Shown: piece by piece, positions 10,085-52,897 of the stretch
Position numbering within the stretch: position 1 is the first letter of the stretch
Layout of the letters: the number at the start of each line of letters is the position of its first letter
NCBI GenBank assembly: GCA_027082835.1
Contig: JALWTP010000025.1
Coordinates: 1-55,020 of the forward strand
Length of the DNA: 55,020 nucleotides
Source of the DNA: Candidatus Kaiserbacteria bacterium
Lineage (GTDB): Bacteria; Patescibacteriota; Minisyncoccia; Phycocordibacterales; UBA2100
Direction: 5' to 3'
Made by a program: the position numbers and the translations under genes
Notes under the pieces: generated by a model
Databases searched by the model: none
What the model was told of the DNA's origin: nothing
Seen by the model: only the letters and a program-made list of their open reading frames with translations

Positions 10085-10155
10085 AGCGGGGTGGAGAAGA
10101 AGTATCTCGCGGGGCTCATAACCCCGAGCCATCGGTGCAATTCCGGTCCCCGCAA
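10085..10155 (+). tRNA. tRNA-Met(CAU), initiator-like, with non-canonical D and T loops
   Basis: Hand-folded cloverleaf: AGCGGGG/CCCCGCA acceptor (1:72 A-A mismatch), anticodon arm CGGGG-CTCATAA-CCCCG (three G-C pairs next to the loop), T arm ATCGG-TGCAATT-CCGGT. Confidence 0.6.
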
Positions 10156-10166
10156 CATGTTTAAAG

Positions 10167-10237: not shown

Positions 10238-10919
10238 ATGGTCAAGAGTTCAGAAAAAATACAAGCAAGAATACTTAGAAAACGAGGAATTAGTATAACT
10301 GAAATAGCAAAACAGCTTAATGTTTCGAAAGGGTCCGTAAGTATTTGGTGTAGTGATATTATTCTTTCGGAAAAGCAAAAACGAGTTCTTTATGAAAACA
10401 AAATAAAAGGCGGGTTGATTGGCAGAATGAAAGGTGCAGAAAAAAAACAAACAGAAGCGTCTTGATCAACTGTCAAAATATGAAAAAGAGGGAGAATTAG
10501 AAATTAACGCAATTACAAAAAGAGATCTTCTTATGTTGGGAATTGGTTTATATTGGGGCGAAGGAACAAAAAGTAATTATGGAGGTCCCGCTGTCATTAC
10601 TAATTCTGATCCAAATGTTATTTTACTTGCAATGCGGTGGTTTCAGGAAAACTTTGGTGTTGCGGTAAAAGATTTTAGACCGTATATTTATATTTCTGAG
10701 ATACATAAGGAAAGGGAAGAAGATATAATGAATTTTTGGGTAGGCACTCTAAAAATACCAAAGAAACAATTTTTAAGAATTATTTTTCTAAAAAATCGTC
10801 CTAAGAAAAAATATGAGAATTATGATTCTTATTATGGTATATTATCGTTGCGTGTGCGCCGTAGTACGAACTTGAAATATAAAATATTGGGTTTAATTAA
10901 AGCGTGTGCACCAAAGTAA
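10238..10919 (+). pseudogene. HTH plus single-motif LAGLIDADG-like endonuclease, split into two ORFs (10238-10465, 10434-10919) at an A8 run
   Basis: ORF1 carries an HTH-like ILRKRGISITEIAKQLNVSKGSVSIW. ORF2 carries LGIGLYWGEGTK (LAGLIDADG-like, acidic E). The frames overlap at gcagaaaaaaaac. Confidence 0.55.
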
Positions 10920-10997: not shown

Positions 10998-11226
10998 CAC
11001 ATAACACATAGAACAAAACACGAGCAGTGTTTTGTAATGATGTGGTATTGGCGACGAGAGGATTTGAAAAGAGGTGTCGGTATACAAGACGAACGAAACG
11101 AAGTGGAGTGAGGGCTTGTCGACACCGGCGGGGTCGCGTCGCTTGATATTTTAGAGCGCAAAGCGCGAATAAAATATCTAGCAAAGGTGACCAAATCCTC
11201 CCGTCGACACACATAACACACAGAAC
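10980..11226 (+). repeat. 35-nt direct repeat (10980-11014 and 11192-11226) duplicating the tRNA T-loop to 3' end plus trailer; offset 212 bp
   Basis: caaatcctcccgtcgacacacataacaca[t/c]agaac occurs twice. Confidence 0.9.
11058..11200 (+). ncRNA. Candidate structured element (three-way junction), tRNA-Met-linked copy
   Basis: Anti-T box GAGGATTTGAA 11058-11068; hairpin GGTGTCG/CGACACC 11073-11126; long hairpin 11132-11192; closing partner CAAATCCTC 11192-11200. Homologous to 12218-12340. Confidence 0.4.
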
Positions 11227-11274: not shown

Positions 11275-11395
11275 TACTGCGCGAACGAAGGGACTTGAAT
11301 CTTTAATATCTTCGTATAGAAGTTAAGTATATGCTACACATAAAGTTGAGCATATATTGGTTGTAGATTTTGCCTGTCATTGTTATTATATACAT

Positions 11396-12079
11396 ATGAA
11401 AAGTAAAAAGGTGGTGAATAAAGATTTTTTTAAAAACTGGTCAAGTGAAATGGCGTATGTGTTAGGATTTTTTGCTGCCGATGGATATATGTGGGAAAGT
11501 GCACGAGGTGCATATTTTTTTGGTTTTCAGATTAAAGATAAGAATTTGCTGTATAAAATAAGAAAAATATTAAATTCAAACCATAAAATTGCTCAGAGAA
11601 TCAGTAAAAATAGTAATTGGCATGATAGTTATAGATTACAGATTGGTAGCAAGGAAATGTTCAATGATCTCTTAATGCTTGGTATGACTCCTGCAAAGAG
11701 TAAGACACTCACATTTCCTAAAATTCCAAAAGAATATTTGAAAGATTTTATACGAGGTTATTTTGATGGTGATGGAAATGTGTATTTTAAAAAACATTTT
11801 GCAAAAGATAGGGGAAAAGATAGATGGGTCTTTCAAACGCGATTTACATCTGCAAGCAGAAGGTTTCTAAAAGAAATACAAGAAAGATTAAAAAAGAAAT
11901 ATATACAGGGCGGATACATTTACCAAAAACAACGAGGATATGAACTGGTATTCAGTCATCGCGATAGTATTGCTTTATATGAATTAATGTATAATAATAC
12001 TGCAACAAGTTTGTATTTACGGCGCAAAAAAGATATTTTTGAAAAAGCGTTGCGAACTTTGTACCATAAGGGGACGTAG
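11396..12079 (+). CDS. Double-motif LAGLIDADG homing endonuclease
   Basis: Two LAGLIDADG motifs, VLGFFAADGYM and IRGYFDGDGNVY. The stop codon TAG (12077-12079) lies inside tRNA-Asp. Confidence 0.8.
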   Translation: MKSKKVVNKDFFKNWSSEMAYVLGFFAADGYMWESARGAYFFGFQIKDKNLLYKIRKILNSNHKIAQRISKNSNWHDSYRLQIGSKEMFNDLLMLGMTPAKSKTLTFPKIPKEYLKDFIRGYFDGDGNVYFKKHFAKDRGKDRWVFQTRFTSASRRFLKEIQERLKKKYIQGGYIYQKQRGYELVFSHRDSIALYELMYNNTATSLYLRRKKDIFEKALRTLYHKGT

Positions 12080-12142: not shown

Positions 12143-12148
12143 CATTAC

Positions 12149-12176
12149 AAAAAAACAGCCCGTATGGGCGTTTTTT
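12149..12176 (+). terminator. Rho-independent terminator (repeated at 12361-12388)
   Basis: aaaaaaacaGCCCgtatGGGCgtttttt. Confidence 0.65.
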
Positions 12177-12217
12177 GTTGCGGAAACGAAACAACAGTGC
12201 CTGCGCACTGTTGTGGC

Positions 12218-12340
12218 GGGACTTGAAAAGAGCGAGCATATCGGAGGAGGTACGACGACGATGTGAGCGGCGGGGTCGCGTAGCTTAGTATTTTAGAGTG
12301 CGGAGCACGAATAAAATAGTTAGCGAAGGTGACCAAGTCC
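12218..12340 (+). ncRNA. Candidate structured element (three-way junction), tRNA-Asp-linked copy
   Basis: Anti-T box GGGACTTGAA 12218-12227; hairpin CATATCG/CGATGTG 12237-12265; long hairpin 12274-12334; closing partner CAAGTCC 12334-12340. Confidence 0.4.
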
Positions 12341-12483
12341 TTACATTGCTCTCGCATTACAAAAAAACAGCCCGTATGGGCGTTTTTTGTTGCGGAAACG
12401 AAACTACAGTGCCTGCGCACTGTTGTGGCGGGACTTGAAAAGAGCGAACGATACACTTTTCTGCAAGAATTCAAGTGGCACAG

Positions 12484-13969: not shown

Positions 13970-14042
13970 GCCAACCTAGCTCATCTGGTAGAGCAACGGT
14001 ATCGTAAACCGTAGGTACGGGGTTCGAGTCCCCGGGTTGGCT
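13970..14042 (+). tRNA. tRNA-Thr(CGU)
   Basis: GCCAACC/GGTTGGC acceptor, ACGGT-ATCGTAA-ACCGT, CGGGG-TTCGAGT-CCCCG. Confidence 0.9.
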
Positions 14043-14043
14043 C

Positions 14044-14907
14044 ATGACTAAAGAACGCATACACGAGATAGAAGCACTGATGCAACAGCCTAACTTTTGG
14101 GATGATTCTGCACATGCGCAATCGCTCATTAAAGAATTGCAGGAATTAAAAGACGCACAAGAAGGTTTGGGAAAATACGATAAAGGACCGGCGATAGTAA
14201 GTATACTCTCCGGCGCCGGAGGAGATGATGCGGAAGACTTCTCCGCGATACTTTTTCATATGTATCGCAAGTTTATAGAAAGCAAGGGATGGGAGGCGGT
14301 AGTGTTAGATGAAAATGTGAGCTCAGCGGGGTACAGAAGTGTTTCGTTTGAGGTTGCCGGCAAGGGTGCCTACGGCACCCTTGCCGGCGAGTCCGGTGTA
14401 CATCGCCTTGTGCGCATTAGTCCATTCAATGCGCAAGGAAAACGCCAGACCAGCTTTTCGTTGGTGGAAGTACTGCCGAAACTCCCTGAGGTAAGCGAAG
14501 TTGCCATTGCCGACAGCGATATAGAAGTGAGCTTTGCGCGCTCAGGCGGCGCCGGCGGGCAAAATGTAAACAAAGTGGAAACTGCGGTACGGATAACACA
14601 CATCCCGACGGGTATTACGGTAAAGTGTACGGCAGAGCGCTCTCAAGAGCGTAACAGAGAAAAAGCAATGAATATCTTGCGTGGGAAATTGTATAAGAAA
14701 CAATTAGAAGACAACGAAAAGTTAGAAAAAGGACTTTCTGTGTCAGCTGATACAAAGATAGAATGGGGAAGTCAGATTCGTTCGTATGTGTTACATCCAT
14801 ACAAAAAAGTGAAAGACCACCGCAGTGGATTTGAGACGAGTGATGTAGAGGCAGTACTAGGTGGCAACTTGAGCGACCTCATACAGAGCAATAGACAGAT
14901 TAAGTAA
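14044..14907 (+). CDS. prfB: Peptide chain release factor 2, short form (287 aa) with no frameshift site
   Basis: SPF tripeptide ([15 protein letters not shown]) and GGQ ([25 protein letters not shown]). The ATG is 2 nt after tRNA-Thr. Confidence 0.85.
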
Positions 14908-37564: not shown

Positions 37565-38557
37565 ATGTTCGAAACTAACGAAAAACCCGAGATTATACAA
37601 AAATACGAGCATGATCCTCGTGTAGGGTATTTAATACAGGAATATCATAAACTTGAAGGACAAGAGCACGATGCGAGAGAGCTGGCACAAACAGACCCAC
37701 AGATGGCAGAACTTGCAAAAGAGGACTGTGAAGCAATACTGCAAGCAAAAGAAGGAATTATCTCTCAGATACAAGATATTGTGAAAGAGGATTCTGTACA
37801 ACAAAAGTTTCCTGATGAGTTGGTCCTTGAAGTGCGCGCAGGTGCGGGGGGAGAAGAAGCCGCACTATTTGCAGAAGAGCTTGCGCTTATGTACACCAAG
37901 TACGCAGAGGTTAAGGGGTGGAGTGTGCGAACACTTCACGAATCTCGTTCATCTATGGGAGGATTTAAAGAAGCATCTTTTGAGATTAAAGGAAAGGGGA
38001 GCTATAAACTACTTCGTCTTGAGACGGGAGTACATCGAGTGCAACGAATACCTGCGACAGAAAAACAGGGGAGAATCCATACTTCTACCGCGAGTGTGGC
38101 GGTACTTCCGGTGTATAAACACACGACAATAGAAATAAATCCTGCAGATTTAGAGATAGAGTTTTCTCGCTCTGGTGGGAAAGGCGGACAAAATGTAAAC
38201 AAAGTGGAAACAGCGGTACGATTGACGCACAAACCGACAGGACTTACTGTGCGCTGTACTGCAGAGCGAAGCCAGCAGAAAAACCGCGAGAAAGCATATT
38301 CCATCATCGCTTCGCGATTGCAAGAGATGCACGATGAAGAAGAAGCGCGCAAGATATCGGACGCACGGTCATTGCAAGTGGGTACGGCAGACCGTTCTGA
38401 AAAGATTCGCACCTACAACTTCCCGCAGGACCGTATTACCGATCACAGAATTAAAGAATCTTGGTCGGGCATTGAAAAGGTAATGGGAGGCGATATAGAT
38501 ACAATACTTAAAGCGATAGGAAGTGCTGCAGAGGAGGAAGGCGAAGATTCTGAATAA
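37565..38557 (+). CDS. prfA: Peptide chain release factor 1
   Basis: PAT tripeptide ([14 protein letters not shown]) and GGQ ([20 protein letters not shown]). Confidence 0.9.
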
Positions 38558-39392: not shown

Positions 39393-39971
39393 ATGACATC
39401 TACTGAACTTATTAAACAATTACGAGACGAAACGGGAGTTTCTATAATGCAGTGTAAAAAAGCATTGGAAGAAGCCAATGACGATATTGAAACTGCGAAA
39501 GTGGCACTGCGAAAAATTAGCGCACAAGTAGCTGCAAAGAAGTCAGACCGTGAGCTTGGCAGTGGTACCATACAGGCATATCTACACGCTGGAAACTCTA
39601 TTATGGGAGCAGTGGTGCTTGCATGTGAGACAGACTTCGTAGCGAAAAATGAAGAATTTGTCGCACTTGCATATGACATTGCTATGCATGTAGCAGCGAC
39701 TGCTCCTGAGTTTATATCGCGTGATGATGTAACAGAAGAGTCTACCGCAGCTGCACGAGAGCTTTTTGAAAAAGAGGCACAAGACAAGCCGGAAGAAATG
39801 CGAGAAAAAATAGTGGAAGGAAAGATGAACTCATTCCTGAAAGAAAAGGTGCTATTAGAGCAACCATTTGTGAAAACTCCTGATAAGACTATACAAAATC
39901 TTCTTGATGAAGCTACACAAAAATTTGGCGAGAGAATTGAGATTTCAAAAATGTCTCGTCTTTGTGTATAG
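39393..39971 (+). CDS. tsf: Elongation factor Ts (short form)
   Basis: LIKQLRDETGVSIMQCKKALEEANDDIETA UBA-like N-terminus; 192 aa. Confidence 0.85.
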   Translation: MTSTELIKQLRDETGVSIMQCKKALEEANDDIETAKVALRKISAQVAAKKSDRELGSGTIQAYLHAGNSIMGAVVLACETDFVAKNEEFVALAYDIAMHVAATAPEFISRDDVTEESTAAARELFEKEAQDKPEEMREKIVEGKMNSFLKEKVLLEQPFVKTPDKTIQNLLDEATQKFGERIEISKMSRLCV

Positions 39972-39979
39972 TATTATAT

Positions 39980-40390
39980 ATGACCTACAGCATACTTTTC
40001 GTTGTATTTCTTACACTTTTTGTTGCTTTTATTACACTTAAGCATTTTTCGCTATTGGAAAATGTGGAGGTGTATAAAAGAGTGCGATCAAAGGGCGATG
40101 CAAAAGTAGTAAAGTACGCGCGCATCGCCAAAAAAAGCACAGAGAATATTGATTTTGGTGCACTCGTTATATTTACAATGCGCAGAAGTATTCATTTGGT
40201 AGCACATATTATTGCAACTGTTGCCAAAAGCGTTGAGAATAACGCACGGAAAGTTACCGGAGCAATGGCCTACTCAAAAGAAGAAGTGTCTATGCGTGAA
40301 GGGTCTTCGTTTCTGAAAGAGGTTTCCATACACAAAAAGGGACTTGACACAGATAGAATTAAAAGAGAAACTACTCTGACTTCTGAATAG
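39980..40390 (+). CDS. Hypothetical membrane-anchored protein
   Basis: N-terminal TM (ILFVVFLTLFVAFITL); no recognisable family. Confidence 0.35.
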   Translation: MTYSILFVVFLTLFVAFITLKHFSLLENVEVYKRVRSKGDAKVVKYARIAKKSTENIDFGALVIFTMRRSIHLVAHIIATVAKSVENNARKVTGAMAYSKEEVSMREGSSFLKEVSIHKKGLDTDRIKRETTLTSE

Positions 40391-40416
40391 GTTTGGAAGT
40401 TAGATTGGCAGAAAAA

Positions 40417-40576
40417 GGTTGCTGTTTAGATGAAAATCAGTATCCTTATACACACAATAAAATAAAGAACGCCAGAAAGCTGAGTTGGCAAGAAGAATAT
40501 TGCCAACCGCCTTGAGGTTGCTGTTTAGATGAAAATCAGTATCCTTATACACACAATAAAATAAAGAACGCCAGAA
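40417..40576 (+). repeat. 99-bp-period duplication of the tRNA-Thr leader plus a degenerate 5' tRNA half
   Basis: The 61-nt ggttgctgtttagatg...aacgccagaa is identical at 40417-40477 and 40516-40576. The first copy continues as a degenerate D arm plus AACCGCCTTGA. Confidence 0.9.
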
Positions 40577-40642
40577 TAGCTCAGTTGGTAGAGCAACCGC
40601 CTTGTAAGCGGTAGGTCAGCGGTTCAAGTCCGCTTTCTGGCT
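40570..40642 (+). tRNA. tRNA-Thr(UGU)
   Basis: GCCAGAA/TTCTGGC acceptor, GCTC-AGTTGGTA-GAGC, ACCGC-CTTGTAA-GCGGT, AGCGG-TTCAAGT-CCGCT. Confidence 0.9.
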
Positions 40643-40923
40643 CAAAATACAAATTCTTCTTGTAAACAAGAAAGAGCAACCGCCTTGTCTATAGTCAAGT
40701 TGGGTAGGTCAGCGGTTCAAGTCCGCTTTCTGGCTCAAAATACAAATTCTTCTTGTAAACAAGAAAGAGCAACCGCCTTGTCTATAGTCAAGTTGGGTAG
40801 GTCAGCGGTTCAAGTCCGCTTTCTGGCTCAAAATACAAATTCCTCTTGTAAACAAGAAAGAGCAACCGCCTTGCCTATAGTCAAGTTGGGTAGGGCAGAG
40901 GTTCAAGTCCGCTTTCTGGCTCA
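40643..40923 (+). repeat. Three tandem 93-bp units, each a spacer hairpin plus a partial pseudo-copy of tRNA-Thr(UGU) (D-stem 3' strand to 3' end, anticodon 3' stem replaced)
   Basis: GAGCAACCGCC starts at 40674, 40767 and 40860. The units differ by only a few substitutions. Confidence 0.9.
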
Positions 40924-40934
40924 AGATAAGAAGT

Positions 40935-41636
40935 TTATTTCTTTGCTGTAGAAGTTGCTGTTGTTGTGGCTAAATCAGGCAGTATGGCGAGTATGTCGTC
41001 CATACTCTGCAATCCCGAGTAGGTTTTGTCGTTGAGCACAATGCCTGGGAGTGCATCTTTTTTGATATTTTTCATTTCAGTGAGAGTGGTAATAGCGGGG
41101 AGTCCGATGTTGTAATCAAATGAGTAGATACGCACATCGGGGTTTTGTTTTATAAGCTCGGTTAATACATATCCCTGTCGTTTACAGTCGGTACATTCAC
41201 CTTTTTTGTTTGAATAAAAGTATAAAATAGTTGTGGGCTTTAAATTACATTTTTCCGATACTTTTTTCATCAGAAGCATATCTTTAATTTCAAGGAGAGA
41301 ATAATGTTTTTTGAGACTTATTACTTGCGGGTTATCAGCTCCGAGTTGTGCTTCGGTAAAGGCAAGTTTGTGTCCCAATGAGTCCAATTCATTAGAAAGC
41401 ACCGGCTTTCCTGAGATGTCTTTACATGATTGTTCTTGCAGTAAATCAAACTGTGTCTCAAGCGAGAGTATGTCTATTGAAATACCAGTCTCAAGCGAGC
41501 GTATTTGCGAAATGCGCTTATCATTAAAATAGTTGTTTGCAACAATGGCGGTAACAAAAATAAATCCTGTAATAAGAAAGGTTATAAGGTATTTTGCCCA
41601 CGGTGTAGCAGGTCGTTTGTGTTGTATCGTTTCCAT
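40935..41636 (-). CDS. Membrane-anchored hypothetical protein with a CxxC (thioredoxin-like?) C-terminal domain
   Basis: N-terminal TM; YFYSNKKGECTDCKRQG motif. Confidence 0.4.
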   Translation of the reverse strand: METIQHKRPATPWAKYLITFLITGFIFVTAIVANNYFNDKRISQIRSLETGISIDILSLETQFDLLQEQSCKDISGKPVLSNELDSLGHKLAFTEAQLGADNPQVISLKKHYSLLEIKDMLLMKKVSEKCNLKPTTILYFYSNKKGECTDCKRQGYVLTELIKQNPDVRIYSFDYNIGLPAITTLTEMKNIKKDALPGIVLNDKTYSGLQSMDDILAILPDLATTTATSTAKK

Positions 41637-51820: not shown

Positions 51821-52897
51821 ATGAAAAACAATTTAAACAAAGTATTTATAACCATTTTTGTCGTATCAGCTACTCTTTTTGGAGGAGTTGCGACTTCGTA
51901 TGCGCAAATGGTTGACTACGGTGGCTTGAATGACTATTCAAACTACGGCGGACTAAACGACTACCAAAACTACGGCGGTCTTAATGACTATACAAACTAC
52001 GGCGGGTTAAACGACTATGTAGACTACGGAGGTCTTAATGACTATGTCGACTATGGTGGTATAAATGATTACACAAAATCTGGTGGTTATTACAGTGGTA
52101 TAAATGATTACACAACATCAGATTCATATACAACAACAAACGATACTGTCACATATGACTACATTGATACGACTTATGACTACATTGACACTACACCAAC
52201 ATGGAATTGGAATATATATTTCAAGAAGCGATATGCATATTCACTCCCTCCTACGGTGAAAATAGTACAAAAAAATCAAAATTCAGATGTACTTGCTGAC
52301 TATTACAATACAACACACAGCAAATACAAGAATACAGGACCTGTAGTGCCGACATTGACAATTGTGCAGAATCAGCAAAGTGGTAATGTGCTTAATGACT
52401 ACAACAACGCAACACGCAACGCATCGGTGCAATCGCCCGTTCCTACATTTGAAATAGTGCAAAAGCCACAAACTTCAAGTGTTATTGCTGACTATATAAA
52501 AGAGACGCAGTATGACAAACCTCAAACTGCAACAGTGGTGCATCCGCGCGTATACCAATATGCAACTAATCCCACACCTGTGGTATATCAAACCAACTAC
52601 ACCCCCGCATACGACTATGTTCGCATCAACCAAGTACCCTACACCGGAACAAATGATGTAGCGTATGTACTCACCCTCATTGCAGTAGCACTTGCCTCAG
52701 TAGGAGCAGTAGTCTACTTTAGAGGAAACATCGCCTACGCATTTGCAGGACTCACTGGAAACACTCCCGTAACACTCAGTGAAGAGGTAAAGGAAGATAC
52801 TGAAAATGAGAATGAAAACGAAACAGAAGGTGACGACAACAACACACCAACACTCTCACTGATAAACGACGAAAACGGTCCACGACTTTCATTTTAA
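51821..52897 (+). CDS. Repeat-rich surface protein (YGGLNDY repeats) with a VPYTG-TM C-terminal module and acidic tail
   Basis: Signal peptide; six Y-G-G-[LI]-N-D-Y octad repeats plus one degenerate SGINDY copy; three IVQ-x-Q-x-S-x-V-[LI]-x-DY repeats; QVPYTG followed by TM VAYVLTLIAVALASVGAVVYF. Confidence 0.6.
   Translation: MKNNLNKVFITIFVVSATLFGGVATSYAQMVDYGGLNDYSNYGGLNDYQNYGGLNDYTNYGGLNDYVDYGGLNDYVDYGGINDYTKSGGYYSGINDYTTSDSYTTTNDTVTYDYIDTTYDYIDTTPTWNWNIYFKKRYAYSLPPTVKIVQKNQNSDVLADYYNTTHSKYKNTGPVVPTLTIVQNQQSGNVLNDYNNATRNASVQSPVPTFEIVQKPQTSSVIADYIKETQYDKPQTATVVHPRVYQYATNPTPVVYQTNYTPAYDYVRINQVPYTGTNDVAYVLTLIAVALASVGAVVYFRGNIAYAFAGLTGNTPVTLSEEVKEDTENENENETEGDDNNTPTLSLINDENGPRLSF

What the first reader, a model, noticed from the sequence alone, without database searches (positions are those of the whole stretch)
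40417..40923. tRNA-Thr(UGU) embedded in arrays of its own halves
Upstream, a 99-bp-period duplication repeats the 54-nt leader plus GCCAGAA (40417-40477 equals 40516-40576). The first copy continues as a degenerate 5' half that ends in the anticodon loop (…AACCGCCTTGA), and its D-loop is replaced by a TTGGCAA/TTGCCAA hairpin. Downstream there are three 93-bp tandem units (starting at 40674, 40767 and 40860). Each holds a TTCTTGT-AAA-CAAGAA spacer hairpin plus a pseudo-copy running from the D-stem 3' strand to the 3' end. In each pseudo-copy the anticodon 3' stem is replaced: CTTGT|CTATAGTCAAGTTGGGT instead of CTTGTAAGCGGT. The T-arm and acceptor 3' strand are kept intact, and the third unit is slightly decayed. 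The breakpoints sit in the anticodon loop, which is the other classical integrase crossover site in tRNA genes. No cargo or integrase is present. Together with the Met and Asp loci, 3 of the 7 tRNA genes in this window carry partial self-copies.
Basis: seen in the sequence. Interest (0 to 1): 0.65.

Follow-up and report, generated by a model that had tools for sequence, protein, structure and literature searches.

The report
Dead halves around a tRNA-Thr gene
One working threonine tRNA gene in a tiny candidate-phyla-radiation bacterium sits between tandem, non-working partial copies of itself; the same gene carries similar partial copies in about a third of related genomes, which points to repeated breakage, insertion and copying at the gene's anticodon loop rather than to extra tRNA genes.

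Summary
There is one intact tRNA-Thr(UGU) at 40570-40643. Upstream lies a perfect 62-nt direct repeat (leader plus GCCAGAA) enclosing a degenerate 5' half. Downstream lie three 93-bp units: two are identical and the third has 4 substitutions. A second assembly and k-mer depth in an independent run support each junction and the copy number.

The host is a Kaiserbacteria-like Patescibacterium. No integrase, transposase or cargo was found among the ORFs of 200 aa or more scanned in the 55 kb.

The locus (tsf, a ~140-aa ORF, tRNA-Thr UGU) is syntenic in about 70 relatives, and about 22 of them carry partial self-copies within 500 nt. The same 3' pseudo-copy occurs once in L011 and L054. A similar 5' pseudo-half occurs in L022. 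In L085 a live tRNA-Thr sits inside the split halves of a different tRNA-Thr allele, bounded by 14-bp inverted repeats. Pseudo-copies track their own genome's live gene, which indicates gene conversion.

Best reading: these are DNA-level remnants of insertion or duplication at the anticodon loop, amplified by unequal crossing-over. They are not classic prophage att scars and not extra tRNAs. A functional RNA role for the conserved hairpins is not excluded. It is a new variant of a known kind, of moderate interest.

The parts
40416..40470 (+). Leader copy 1 (AGGTTGCTG...AAGAAC, 55 nt), first copy of the 99-bp repeat.
   Evidence: 100% identical to 40515-40569. It starts with AGGTTG. The duplicated leaders of L022 and L091 start with AAGGTTGG.
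40471..40514 (+). 5' pseudo-half of tRNA-Thr. It has the acceptor 5' strand GCCAGAA, a damaged D arm, the hairpin GTTGGCAA-GAAGAATA-TTGCCAAC (40484-40507), then the anticodon-stem 5' strand and loop up to about nt 35 (CAACCGCCTTG).
   Evidence: Sequence. Fold -16.8 kcal/mol, z = -2.35. Not called by ARAGORN or Rfam. L022 has the same architecture with a similar insert. CAAGAAGAAT (40489-40498) is a perfect inverted copy of the trailer's ATTCTTCTTG.
40515..40569 (+). Leader copy 2, directly upstream of the live gene.
   Evidence: No sigma-70 consensus was found in it.
40570..40643 (+). Live tRNA-Thr(UGU); CCA is not encoded (the gene ends ...GGCTC AAAA).
   Evidence: ARAGORN. Rfam tRNA 74.4 bits, full length.
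40644..40736 (+). Downstream unit 1. Trailer 40644-40672 with hairpin TTCTTG-TAAA-CAAGAA (40657-40672), then 3' pseudo-copy 40673-40736: tRNA 21-36, 12-nt insert CTATAGTCAAGT, TGGGT, then tRNA 44-74.
   Evidence: nhmmer matches profile positions 21-74.
40737..40829 (+). Downstream unit 2, identical to unit 1.
   Evidence: 93/93 identity. Unitig depth is consistent with two exact copies.
40830..40922 (+). Downstream unit 3, decayed. Substitutions are 40843 T>C, 40874 T>C, 40895 T>G and 40899 C>A; the last breaks a T-stem pair.
   Evidence: An independent Logan contig starts at 40813 and carries these variants.
40516..40526 (+). Left arm, GGTTGCTGTTT, of an inverted repeat bracketing leader, live tRNA and trailer. 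It also occurs at 40417-40427. With the preceding pseudo-half it forms CAACC-GCCTTGA-GGTTG.
   Evidence: pairs I14-I19: 10 of 11 complementary to AAAGAGCAACC at 40671-40681, 40764-40774 and 40857-40867. Much longer brackets occur in L091 (20 bp) and L085 (14 bp).
40671..40681 (+). Right arm, AAAGAGCAACC, of the bracketing inverted repeat. It overlaps the start of the 3' pseudo-copy and is repeated in each unit.

Best explanation
The locus holds one working tRNA-Thr(UGU) gene surrounded by non-working DNA remnants of earlier copies of the same gene. In this CPR lineage the anticodon-loop-coding part of this gene is a recurrent site of rearrangement.

Proposed sequence of events:
1. A short segment (leader, complete tRNA, trailer, bracketed by short inverted repeats) is inserted or copied into the loop of the resident gene. 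This leaves a 5' half on the left and a 3' part on the right, and the incoming copy takes over the function.
2. Because the remnants still share 35-60 nt with the live gene, unequal crossing-over or replication slippage amplifies them. This gives the 99-bp unit (leader plus 5' half) upstream and the 93-bp unit (3' part plus trailer) downstream.
3. Gene conversion keeps the matching tracts identical to the live gene, while the unmatched tracts drift.

The remnants cannot make tRNA. Each lacks the anticodon-stem 3' strand, and each lacks either the 5' or the 3' acceptor strand.

Shown: the anatomy, the tandem identity, recurrence and conservation in relatives, concerted evolution, the nested gene in L085, and the absence of an integrase or large element.

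Inferred: the order of events, which enzyme does it (none identified), and whether the first step is insertion of a cassette (my preference, about half of this explanation's weight) or plain tandem duplication followed by internal deletion.
For: 1. Tandem amplification. Units 1 and 2 are identical at 93/93 and the leaders are 62/62 identical. k-mer depths scale with copy number.

2. The 3' pseudo-copy is older than the array.
- It occurs once in L011 and in L054 with the same derived features: an insert after nt 35/36 and TGGGT in place of GCGGT.
- The pseudo-copy-specific block is 14/18 identical between the window and L011 (P about 4e-5), while the spacers barely align.

3. Concerted evolution.
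- In the window and in L011 the pseudo-copy's T arm and acceptor strand equal that genome's own tRNA (AAGTCCGCTTTCTGG versus AAATCCGCTCTCTGG).
- Most partial copies in other loci are 100% identical to their own live gene although acceptor stems differ between lineages.

4. Insertion into the loop.
- L085 has a live allele Y between the 5' half (1-35) and 3' half (36-74) of a different allele X. X's acceptor strands (GCCGGCA/TGCCGGC) match each other and the intact gene of L094/L095.
- The insert carries 14-bp perfect terminal inverted repeats.
- L091 has halves 1-39 and 36-74 around a live gene bracketed by a 20-bp inverted repeat, with a further 8-bp match AAGGTTGG/CCAACCTT seen by eye.
- The window has the same layout with a 10/11 bracket.

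5. Relaxed constraint on tRNA features. The T stem is broken in unit 3, decayed in L054 and split by a 73-nt insert in L083. The D arm is damaged in the window's 5' half.

6. Empty states exist. L015/18/20/21/23/26 have a bare tRNA plus terminator in a 153-158-bp spacer.

7. No mobile-element genes were found among the Pfam-scanned ORFs of the 55-kb window. Gene order around the locus is conserved in the close relatives, and no partial copy lies more than 500 nt from the tRNA in any locus.
Against: - CPR genomes are compact, yet the 5'-half architecture persists across a whole sub-clade, and its hairpin shows at least 6 double compensatory changes with none disruptive. That pattern is what selection on a structure would give. 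Quasi-palindrome correction at the DNA level can mimic it.
- In the 3' pseudo-copy's long arm, the two changes seen on its paired positions are one-sided and keep G-U pairing on the + strand. This hints weakly at an RNA constraint.
- No donor for any cassette was found among the loci.
- Target duplications at the junctions are inconsistent in length: 6-7 nt in the window, about 3 in L091 and 0-1 in L085. No single known transposition or recombination chemistry fits.
- For the window itself, insertion cannot be told apart from duplication plus deletion, because the halves are the same allele as the live gene.
Confidence: 0.55

Rival explanations
1. The partial copies, or at least their hairpins, are functional cis-acting RNA or DNA elements of the tRNA-Thr transcription unit. 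Candidate roles: an insulator or terminator that stops read-through from the rpsB-tsf operon inside the 5' pseudo-half; an antisense or decoy segment that modulates folding or processing of the live pre-tRNA; or a '3/4 tRNA' that pairs with the 5' pseudo-half.
For: - In L044, L058, L064, L072, L098 and L100 the 5' pseudo-half has the same plan in each: positions 1-24, an 8-12-bp AT-rich hairpin, the anticodon 5' strand and loop, then an exact antisense of tRNA 24-36. The antisense co-varies with each lineage's anticodon stem.
- The hairpin has at least 6 double compensatory changes.
- A hairpin sits at the analogous place in the window and in L022.
- The 3' pseudo-copy's 7-pair arm is kept in the window, L011 and L054, with only wobble-compatible changes.
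- In L011 the terminator follows the pseudo-copy, so the pseudo-copy is probably co-transcribed.
- The elements persist in streamlined genomes.
Against: - About two thirds of relatives lack any copy, including close ones (L015, L023, L026), and manage with a bare tRNA plus terminator.
- tRNA-like features are not conserved: T arms and D arms are broken.
- RNAalifold finds no double-sided covariation in the 3' copy, and the covariation term is about 0.
- Fold z-scores are modest, -1.1 to -2.4.
- No Rfam family matches. No consensus promoter or terminator lies in the array.
- Copy number varies from 1 to 3 between genomes.
- No transcript data could be obtained.
- Compensatory change in palindromes can arise without selection.
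Confidence: 0.2
2. The partial copies are classic attL/attR scars. Integrase-encoding phages, plasmids or islands integrated repeatedly into the anticodon loop, each bringing a replacement 3' part. Their bodies were later deleted, leaving only att-site copies.
For: - Breakpoints sit at the anticodon loop, a classical crossover sublocation. Serial integration at one tRNA is known to leave rows of partial tRNAs (tycheposons, bioRxiv 10.1101/2020.12.28.424599; attR fragments, PMC9897764).
- In L091 the 3' copies start cleanly at nt 36.
- At tRNA-Met and tRNA-Asp in this window, a shared ORF-less module lies between the gene and a direct copy of its T-loop-to-3' end, as an integrated element would.
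- The type-A tRNA-Thr anticodon arm is common in viral contigs.
Against: - No integrase, excisionase or phage gene was found among the Pfam-scanned ORFs of the 55 kb.
- Flanking gene order is conserved in the close relatives.
- No locus has a copy beyond 500 nt.
- Units 1 and 2 are identical including the spacer, so they are duplicates, not separate events.
- The window's pseudo-copy has two identity blocks split by an insertion, unlike the single block of an attR.
- The upstream 5' halves are not what integrases that restore the 3' part leave behind.
- L085 shows no duplicated overlap region at its junctions.
Confidence: 0.15
3. The array is an assembly artefact: a repeat collapsed, expanded or chimerically joined from several strains' tRNA loci.
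For: The period (93-99 bp) is shorter than a read pair and units 1 and 2 are identical, so short reads cannot fix the exact number of identical units. Logan contigs break inside the repeats.
Against: - Two assemblies agree base for base.
- Every junction, including the pseudo-half and the decayed unit 3, is carried by its own unitig in run X1.
- Depths scale as expected for 2 and 3 copies.
- A second study's run holds the unit.
- Independent assemblies of relatives show the same architecture.
Confidence: 0.03

Closest known systems
Partial tRNA genes left as attR/attL copies by integrative elements (prophages, ICEs, tycheposons)
   Same: There are direct partial copies of a tRNA gene next to the intact gene. 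Breakpoints lie at the anticodon loop (Thr) or T loop (Met and Asp in this window). Rows of several partial copies at one tRNA are known from serial integration.
   Different: There is no integrase or cargo here. Copies lie 29-100 nt apart rather than kilobases apart. 5' halves lie upstream as well as 3' parts downstream. The identity to the tRNA is interrupted by an insertion. Two units are exact tandem duplicates. The same pseudo-copy is conserved in distant relatives.
Tandem duplication of tRNA genes followed by decay (experimental tRNA gene birth by tandem duplication; tandem-duplication-random-loss with pseudo-tRNAs in animal mitochondria). From my own knowledge; the first is cited in PMC9897764.
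   Same: Both show head-to-tail repeats containing a tRNA gene, pseudo-copies beside one live copy, and concerted evolution of duplicated tracts.
   Different: Units here are sub-genic (93-117 bp) with ends inside the gene at the anticodon loop. They carry inverted-repeat brackets and fold-back antisense segments. In L085 the flanking halves belong to a different allele from the live gene, which plain duplication cannot produce.
Split and tri-split tRNA genes of Nanoarchaeum and Caldivirga, and permuted tRNA genes (mentioned in PMC10714607)
   Same: 5' and 3' tRNA halves are encoded as separate pieces that break in the anticodon loop, with complementary sequences next to the halves.
   Different: Those halves are the only source of the tRNA and are joined by the archaeal splicing endonuclease. 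Here an intact gene is present, the halves are damaged, the organism is a bacterium, and the halves lack intact anticodon stems.
Recombinase-less cassettes moved by host enzymes (Xer-dependent IMEX elements and pdif modules) and MITEs. From my own knowledge.
   Same: These are small ORF-less segments bounded by short inverted repeats and inserted at a specific short site.
   Different: No Xer-type 11-6-11 site, no consistent target duplication and no dispersed copies were found. The cargo is a copy of the very gene that is hit.

Membership tests
Integrase att scar at a tRNA gene | One contiguous block of identity to the tRNA running from the crossover point to the 3' end. | tested here: not met
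   The window pseudo-copy matches tRNA 21-36 and 41-74, with a 12-nt insert and two substitutions between them. The feature is met in relatives L091 and L085.
Integrase att scar at a tRNA gene | An integrase gene and element body (or their remains) between the intact gene and the partial copy. | tested here: not met
   Only 29 nt separate the copies. Pfam finds no recombinase among the scanned ORFs of the 55 kb. No copy lies more than 500 nt away in about 70 syntenic loci.
Integrase att scar at a tRNA gene | Breakpoint at a classical sublocation (anticodon loop or T loop). | tested here: met
   The breakpoint is at nt 35-38 for Thr in the window, L022, L085 and L091, and at the T loop for Met and Asp.
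Tandem repeat made by unequal crossing-over or slippage | Head-to-tail units of constant period with near-identical sequence, including non-genic spacer. | tested here: met
   TRF period 93, 3.4 copies, 97% matches. Units 1 and 2 are 93/93 identical. The upstream 99-bp period has 62 nt at 100%. L044 has two identical 117-nt units.
Functional tRNA or tRNA-like gene | A complete cloverleaf, or a recognised tRNA-like family model. | tested here: not met
   ARAGORN and Rfam (E up to 10) call only 40570-40643 as a tRNA. The pseudo-copies get only an E = 6.5 T-arm match.
Split or permuted tRNA gene | The halves are the only source of that tRNA and can reconstitute intact stems. | tested here: not met
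   An intact gene is present. The 5' half has a damaged D arm, and every copy lacks the anticodon-stem 3' strand.
Split or permuted tRNA gene | A splicing endonuclease or bulge-helix-bulge motif at the junctions. | not tested
   By eye, the long arm has a 2x3 internal loop rather than staggered 3-nt bulges. No search for an endonuclease gene was made.
Transposon or MITE | Terminal inverted repeats plus a target-site duplication of fixed length. | tested here: inconclusive
   Inverted repeats bracket the live gene in L085 (14 bp), L091 (20 bp) and the window (10/11). Apparent duplications are 0-1, about 3 and 6-7 nt respectively.
Transposon or MITE | Multiple dispersed copies in the genome. | tested here: not met
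   Leader and trailer sequences have no other match in the window or in other loci. The whole genome was not available.
Structured regulatory RNA | Base pairs supported by compensatory changes across relatives. | tested here: inconclusive
   The hairpin of the 5' pseudo-half has at least 6 double changes in 6 relatives. The 3' pseudo-copy arm has only 2 one-sided changes, and its covariation term is about 0. DNA-level palindrome correction is an alternative cause.

The most novel reading that the evidence does not exclude
A self-replacing tRNA gene. This would be a roughly 170-200-bp, ORF-less, inverted-repeat-bounded cassette (leader, tRNA-Thr, trailer) that lands in the anticodon loop of the resident tRNA-Thr gene, destroys it and substitutes its own copy, so that the host cannot afford to lose it. 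Because the cassette's own tRNA is again a target, successive take-overs nest like Russian dolls. They would leave periodic units of leader plus 5' half upstream and 3' part plus trailer downstream. The window's 99-bp and 93-bp arrays would be that fossil record, further shaped by unequal crossing-over. Together with the T-loop module at tRNA-Met, tRNA-Asp and tRNA-Thr, this would define a class of miniature tRNA-gene parasites in CPR bacteria moved by an unidentified enzyme acting in trans.
Probability: 0.25. Interest if true: 0.8.

Novelty: new variant of a known kind. Interest (0 to 1): 0.55.

Why it matters
Partial tRNA genes are normally read as footprints of large integrating elements and are used to delimit genomic islands. 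Here the same kind of footprint occurs without any island, at one conserved housekeeping locus, in roughly a third of about 70 related genomes from a streamlined lineage that is thought to carry very little mobile DNA.

- If the cassette-replacement reading is right, it describes a new, minimal way for a gene to behave selfishly, by killing and replacing its own allele. It would also explain why tRNA-Thr alleles do not follow the organism tree in this clade.
- If the functional reading is right, the conserved 5'-half, hairpin and antisense element would be an undescribed kind of tRNA leader.
- Either way the finding has a practical consequence. These copies break short-read assemblies at tRNA loci, and they can be mis-annotated as tRNA pseudogenes or as att sites of non-existent islands.

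Tried and rejected
- Phage origin of the window: rejected. BLAST against phages matches only the tRNA, and the genes are cellular housekeeping genes (rpsB, tsf, prfA, pheT, gyrB, ligA, pyrG).
- Known RNA families: none apart from tRNA, at gathering thresholds or at E up to 10.
- tmRNA or permuted tmRNA: ARAGORN finds none.
- tRNA intron: the 12-nt insert lies near 36/37, but there is no 5' part to splice to and the stem is mutated, so this was rejected.
- Protein-coding repeat: the ORF 40685-40951 (88 aa, TTG start) is made of the tRNA-like units and is taken as spurious.
- Exact-pattern scan of JGI metagenomes for the pseudo-copy junction: 0 hits.
- Scan of viral contigs for the T-loop module: 0 hits.
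- Scan of viral contigs for the type-A anticodon arm: more than 120 hits, showing only that this tRNA-Thr sequence is common.
- Using those viral loci as a background rate for partial self-copies failed. They are tRNA arrays whose other tRNAs cross-match.
- Looking for an 'empty site' for L085 in its sister L070: the flanks are too diverged to align.
- Looking for donors of leaders and trailers among the loci: none found.
- One read-laying run failed and was repeated.
- Pfam on the two flanking unknown proteins, the small ORF next to tRNA-Met and the ORF inside the L004 element: nothing.
Full report
**What is there.** The window is a chromosomal stretch of a Patescibacterium close to Candidatus Kaiserbacteria. 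It carries rpmE-prfA-rpsB-tsf, pheT, gyrB, ligA, pyrG, type IV pilus genes and about 40% G+C. Its EF-Ts relatives carry that name, and the sample is a hydrothermal-vent metagenome. Between a conserved 142-aa ORF (39962-40390) and a convergent 233-aa ORF (40935-41636) lies a 545-bp spacer. ARAGORN and Rfam find exactly one tRNA in it, tRNA-Thr(UGU) at 40570-40643, scoring 74.4 bits.

**Upstream anatomy.**
- 40416-40477 equals 40515-40576: 62 nt, 100% identity, period 99.
- Each copy is a 55-nt leader starting with AGGTTG, followed by GCCAGAA.
- After the first copy comes a degenerate 5' half (40471-40514). Its D region is replaced by the hairpin GTTGGCAA-GAAGAATA-TTGCCAAC, and it stops at about nt 35 of the anticodon loop.

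**Downstream anatomy.**
- TRF finds a 93-bp period, 3.4 copies, score 603.
- Units 40644-40736 and 40737-40829 are identical.
- Unit 40830-40922 has four substitutions, one of which breaks the T stem.
- Each unit consists of a 29-nt trailer with a TTCTTG-TAAA-CAAGAA hairpin, then tRNA 21-36, a 12-nt insert (CTATAGTCAAGT), TGGGT (the stem strand GCGGT with two changes), and then tRNA 44-74.
The repeat starts one base earlier than stated. The anticodon 3' strand is disrupted by a loop insertion plus two substitutions rather than swapped wholesale.

**Is it real?** A separately deposited ENA scaffold is identical over 6.6 kb, including the whole spacer. Contigs of an independent run (X1) break inside the repeats, as short-read graphs do, but unitigs cover each junction. 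Their depths are 37.6 for the piece expected three times and 32 for the piece expected twice, against 12.7-21.1 in the unique flanks. A run from another study also contains the unit. The exact number of identical units cannot be fixed without long reads, but the architecture is not an artefact.

**Relatives.** The order tsf, ~140-aa ORF, tRNA-Thr(UGU) is conserved in about 70 distinct loci fetched through EF-Ts. I compared each tRNA with its own flanks and ran a tRNA-Thr profile against the masked loci. About 22 loci carry partial self-copies, and all lie within 500 nt of the gene. Three recurrent kinds appear.
- *Upstream 5' parts.* These occur in the window, L022, L035, L044 (two identical 117-nt units), L058, L064, L072, L085, L091, L098 and L100.
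- *Downstream direct 3' parts.* These occur in the window, L011, L054, L072, L083, L085 and L091.
- *Downstream inverted copies of the 3' end.* They follow the terminator, in L004, L019, L022, L024, L033, L035, L046, L049, L068, L096 and L098.

Close relatives L015/18/20/21, L023 and L026 show the bare state: tRNA plus terminator, in a spacer of about 155 bp in L015/18/20/21 and L023.

**Age and evolution of the window's pieces.**
- The odd 3' pseudo-copy is not private to this genome. L011 (EF-Ts 81%) and L054 (about 60%) each have one copy with the same derived features. The pseudo-copy-specific block is 14/18 identical between the window and L011, although the spacers hardly align.
- The pseudo-copy's T arm and acceptor strand are identical to the live gene of the same genome and differ between genomes. 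The duplicate is therefore old, and its matching tracts are kept in step with the live gene. Gene conversion is the simplest explanation.
- The 5' pseudo-half with a hairpin in the D region recurs in L022, with a similar insert, although L022's live tRNA has a different anticodon stem. The pseudo-half follows that stem.
- The three units in the window are a recent tandem amplification of one old unit, not three separate events.

**How such pieces arise.** L085 is the clearest case. Its live tRNA (anticodon stem ACGGT) lies between nt 1-35 and nt 36-74 of a different tRNA-Thr allele. That allele's two acceptor strands match each other and match the intact gene of L094/L095. The insert of about 190 bp has perfect 14-bp terminal inverted repeats. 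L091 has the same layout with a 20-bp bracket, and by eye the match extends by a further 8 bp (AAGGTTGG/CCAACCTT).

The window fits this plan: 5' half, then GGTTGCTGTTT, leader, tRNA, trailer, AAAGAGCAACC, then the 3' part. The bracket is 10/11 complementary, and the junction reads CAACC-GCCTTGA-GGTTG. The leader-repeat unit begins with AGGTTG in the window and AAGGTTGG in L022 and L091, whatever the live allele. A 10-nt stretch of the window's 5'-half hairpin is a perfect inverted copy of the trailer. Several relatives carry exact fold-back antisense copies of tRNA 24-36. Both look like marks of template switching or hairpin-mediated joining.

On a single-protein EF-Ts tree, tRNA-Thr allele types do not follow the organism tree. 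L070 carries a mosaic allele. Both fit exchange at this locus.

**What it is not.**
- No integrase, transposase or phage gene was found among the Pfam-scanned ORFs of the 55 kb.
- The flanking genes keep their order in the close relatives.
- No large insertion separates any copy from its gene.
- The window's pseudo-copy has two identity blocks, not the single block of an attR.
- No Rfam family other than tRNA matches.
- The copies cannot fold into tRNAs.

**Could it be functional?** Some features argue for constraint.
- In L044, L058, L064, L072, L098 and L100 the 5' element has one plan: nt 1-24, an 8-12-bp AT-rich hairpin, the anticodon 5' strand and loop, then an antisense of nt 24-36.
- The hairpin shows at least six double compensatory changes and none that disrupt it.
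- The 3' copy's arm changes only in wobble-compatible ways.

Other features argue against function.
- Two thirds of relatives lack the elements.
- Copy number varies.
- T and D arms decay.
- The covariation term for the 3' copy is about zero.
- Fold z-scores are modest.
- No consensus promoter or terminator lies in the array.
- Palindromes can be kept symmetric by DNA-level correction.
- No transcript data were obtainable.

**Verdict.** The integrase-scar interpretation is partly supported: the breakpoints are in the right place, but nothing else of an integrative element is present, and the array is a tandem amplification.

My best explanation, at 0.55, is DNA-level remnants of loop-targeted insertion or duplication of the tRNA-Thr gene itself, amplified by unequal crossing-over and homogenised by gene conversion. 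The rivals are a functional cis element (0.2), decayed classical integrative elements (0.15) and an artefact (0.03).

Published descriptions of partial tRNA genes attribute them to integrated elements or CRISPR spacers (PMC9897764; tycheposons). I found nothing on such arrays in CPR bacteria. I rate the finding a new variant of a known kind, with interest about 0.55.

Noticed in passing
window 10999-11210 (after tRNA-Met) and 12144-12445 (after tRNA-Asp); also L096:4078-4250, L035, L046, L098, L019: A shared ORF-less module of about 150-230 nt sits after the tRNA. Its order is: terminator; an antisense copy of the tRNA's T-loop-to-3' end, often split by a hairpin; a variable stem; GGCGGGGTCGCG; a long AT-rich hairpin (GCTTAGTATTTT...AAAATA.TTAGC); AAGGTGAC; then a direct copy of the T-loop-to-3' end. 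The GGCGGGGTCGCG piece resembles tRNA-Asp positions 44-53 even at the Met locus, so the module has moved between tRNA genes. There is no Rfam match and no hit in viral contigs.
   Followed up: partly
window 11357-12079 (+) and 10434-10919 (+): A LAGLIDADG_3 homing-endonuclease-like ORF (Pfam E = 1.7e-15) ends inside the first bases of tRNA-Asp. It is preceded at 11283-11299 by an inverted copy of the tRNA-Asp 3' end. A second unannotated ORF abuts tRNA-Met and has no Pfam match.
   Followed up: partly
L085:4102-4334: A live tRNA-Thr(UGU) is nested between the two halves of a different tRNA-Thr allele. The insert is bounded by 14-bp perfect inverted repeats, CCGTTAGAACTTTT / AAAAGTTCTAACGG.
   Followed up: yes
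L102:4440-4600 and L072:4530-4680: An acceptor-stem 'minihelix', GCCATgCTGTATGCtctGCATACAGATGGCTCC, is repeated downstream of tRNA-Thr: three copies in L102 and two in L072. The acceptor strands are joined through a foreign hairpin. L011 has a similar GCCAGAG...CTCTGGC hairpin upstream.
   Followed up: no
L070 tRNA-Thr; EF-Ts tree of all loci: tRNA-Thr(UGU) alleles, as defined by their anticodon-stem types, are scattered across the EF-Ts tree. L070 carries a mosaic allele: the acceptor and T arm of one type with the anticodon arm of another. This suggests exchange between lineages at this gene.
   Followed up: partly
window 14044-14907 (+), right after tRNA-Thr(CGU) at 13970-14043: A second release-factor gene (partial PCRF domain plus RF-1 domain, 287 aa as an ORF) lies in the window in addition to the 330-aa one at 37565-38557. 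The short ORF may be the downstream part of a frameshifted prfB.
   Followed up: no
window 10085-10156: This tRNA-Met(CAU) has the lowest score in the window (48.2 bits). It has an unusual D region and starts with an A.
   Followed up: no
window 51915-52068: A 27/54-bp tandem repeat (5.7 copies) lies inside the ORF 51821-52897, which has no Pfam match. It is probably a repeat-containing surface protein.
   Followed up: no
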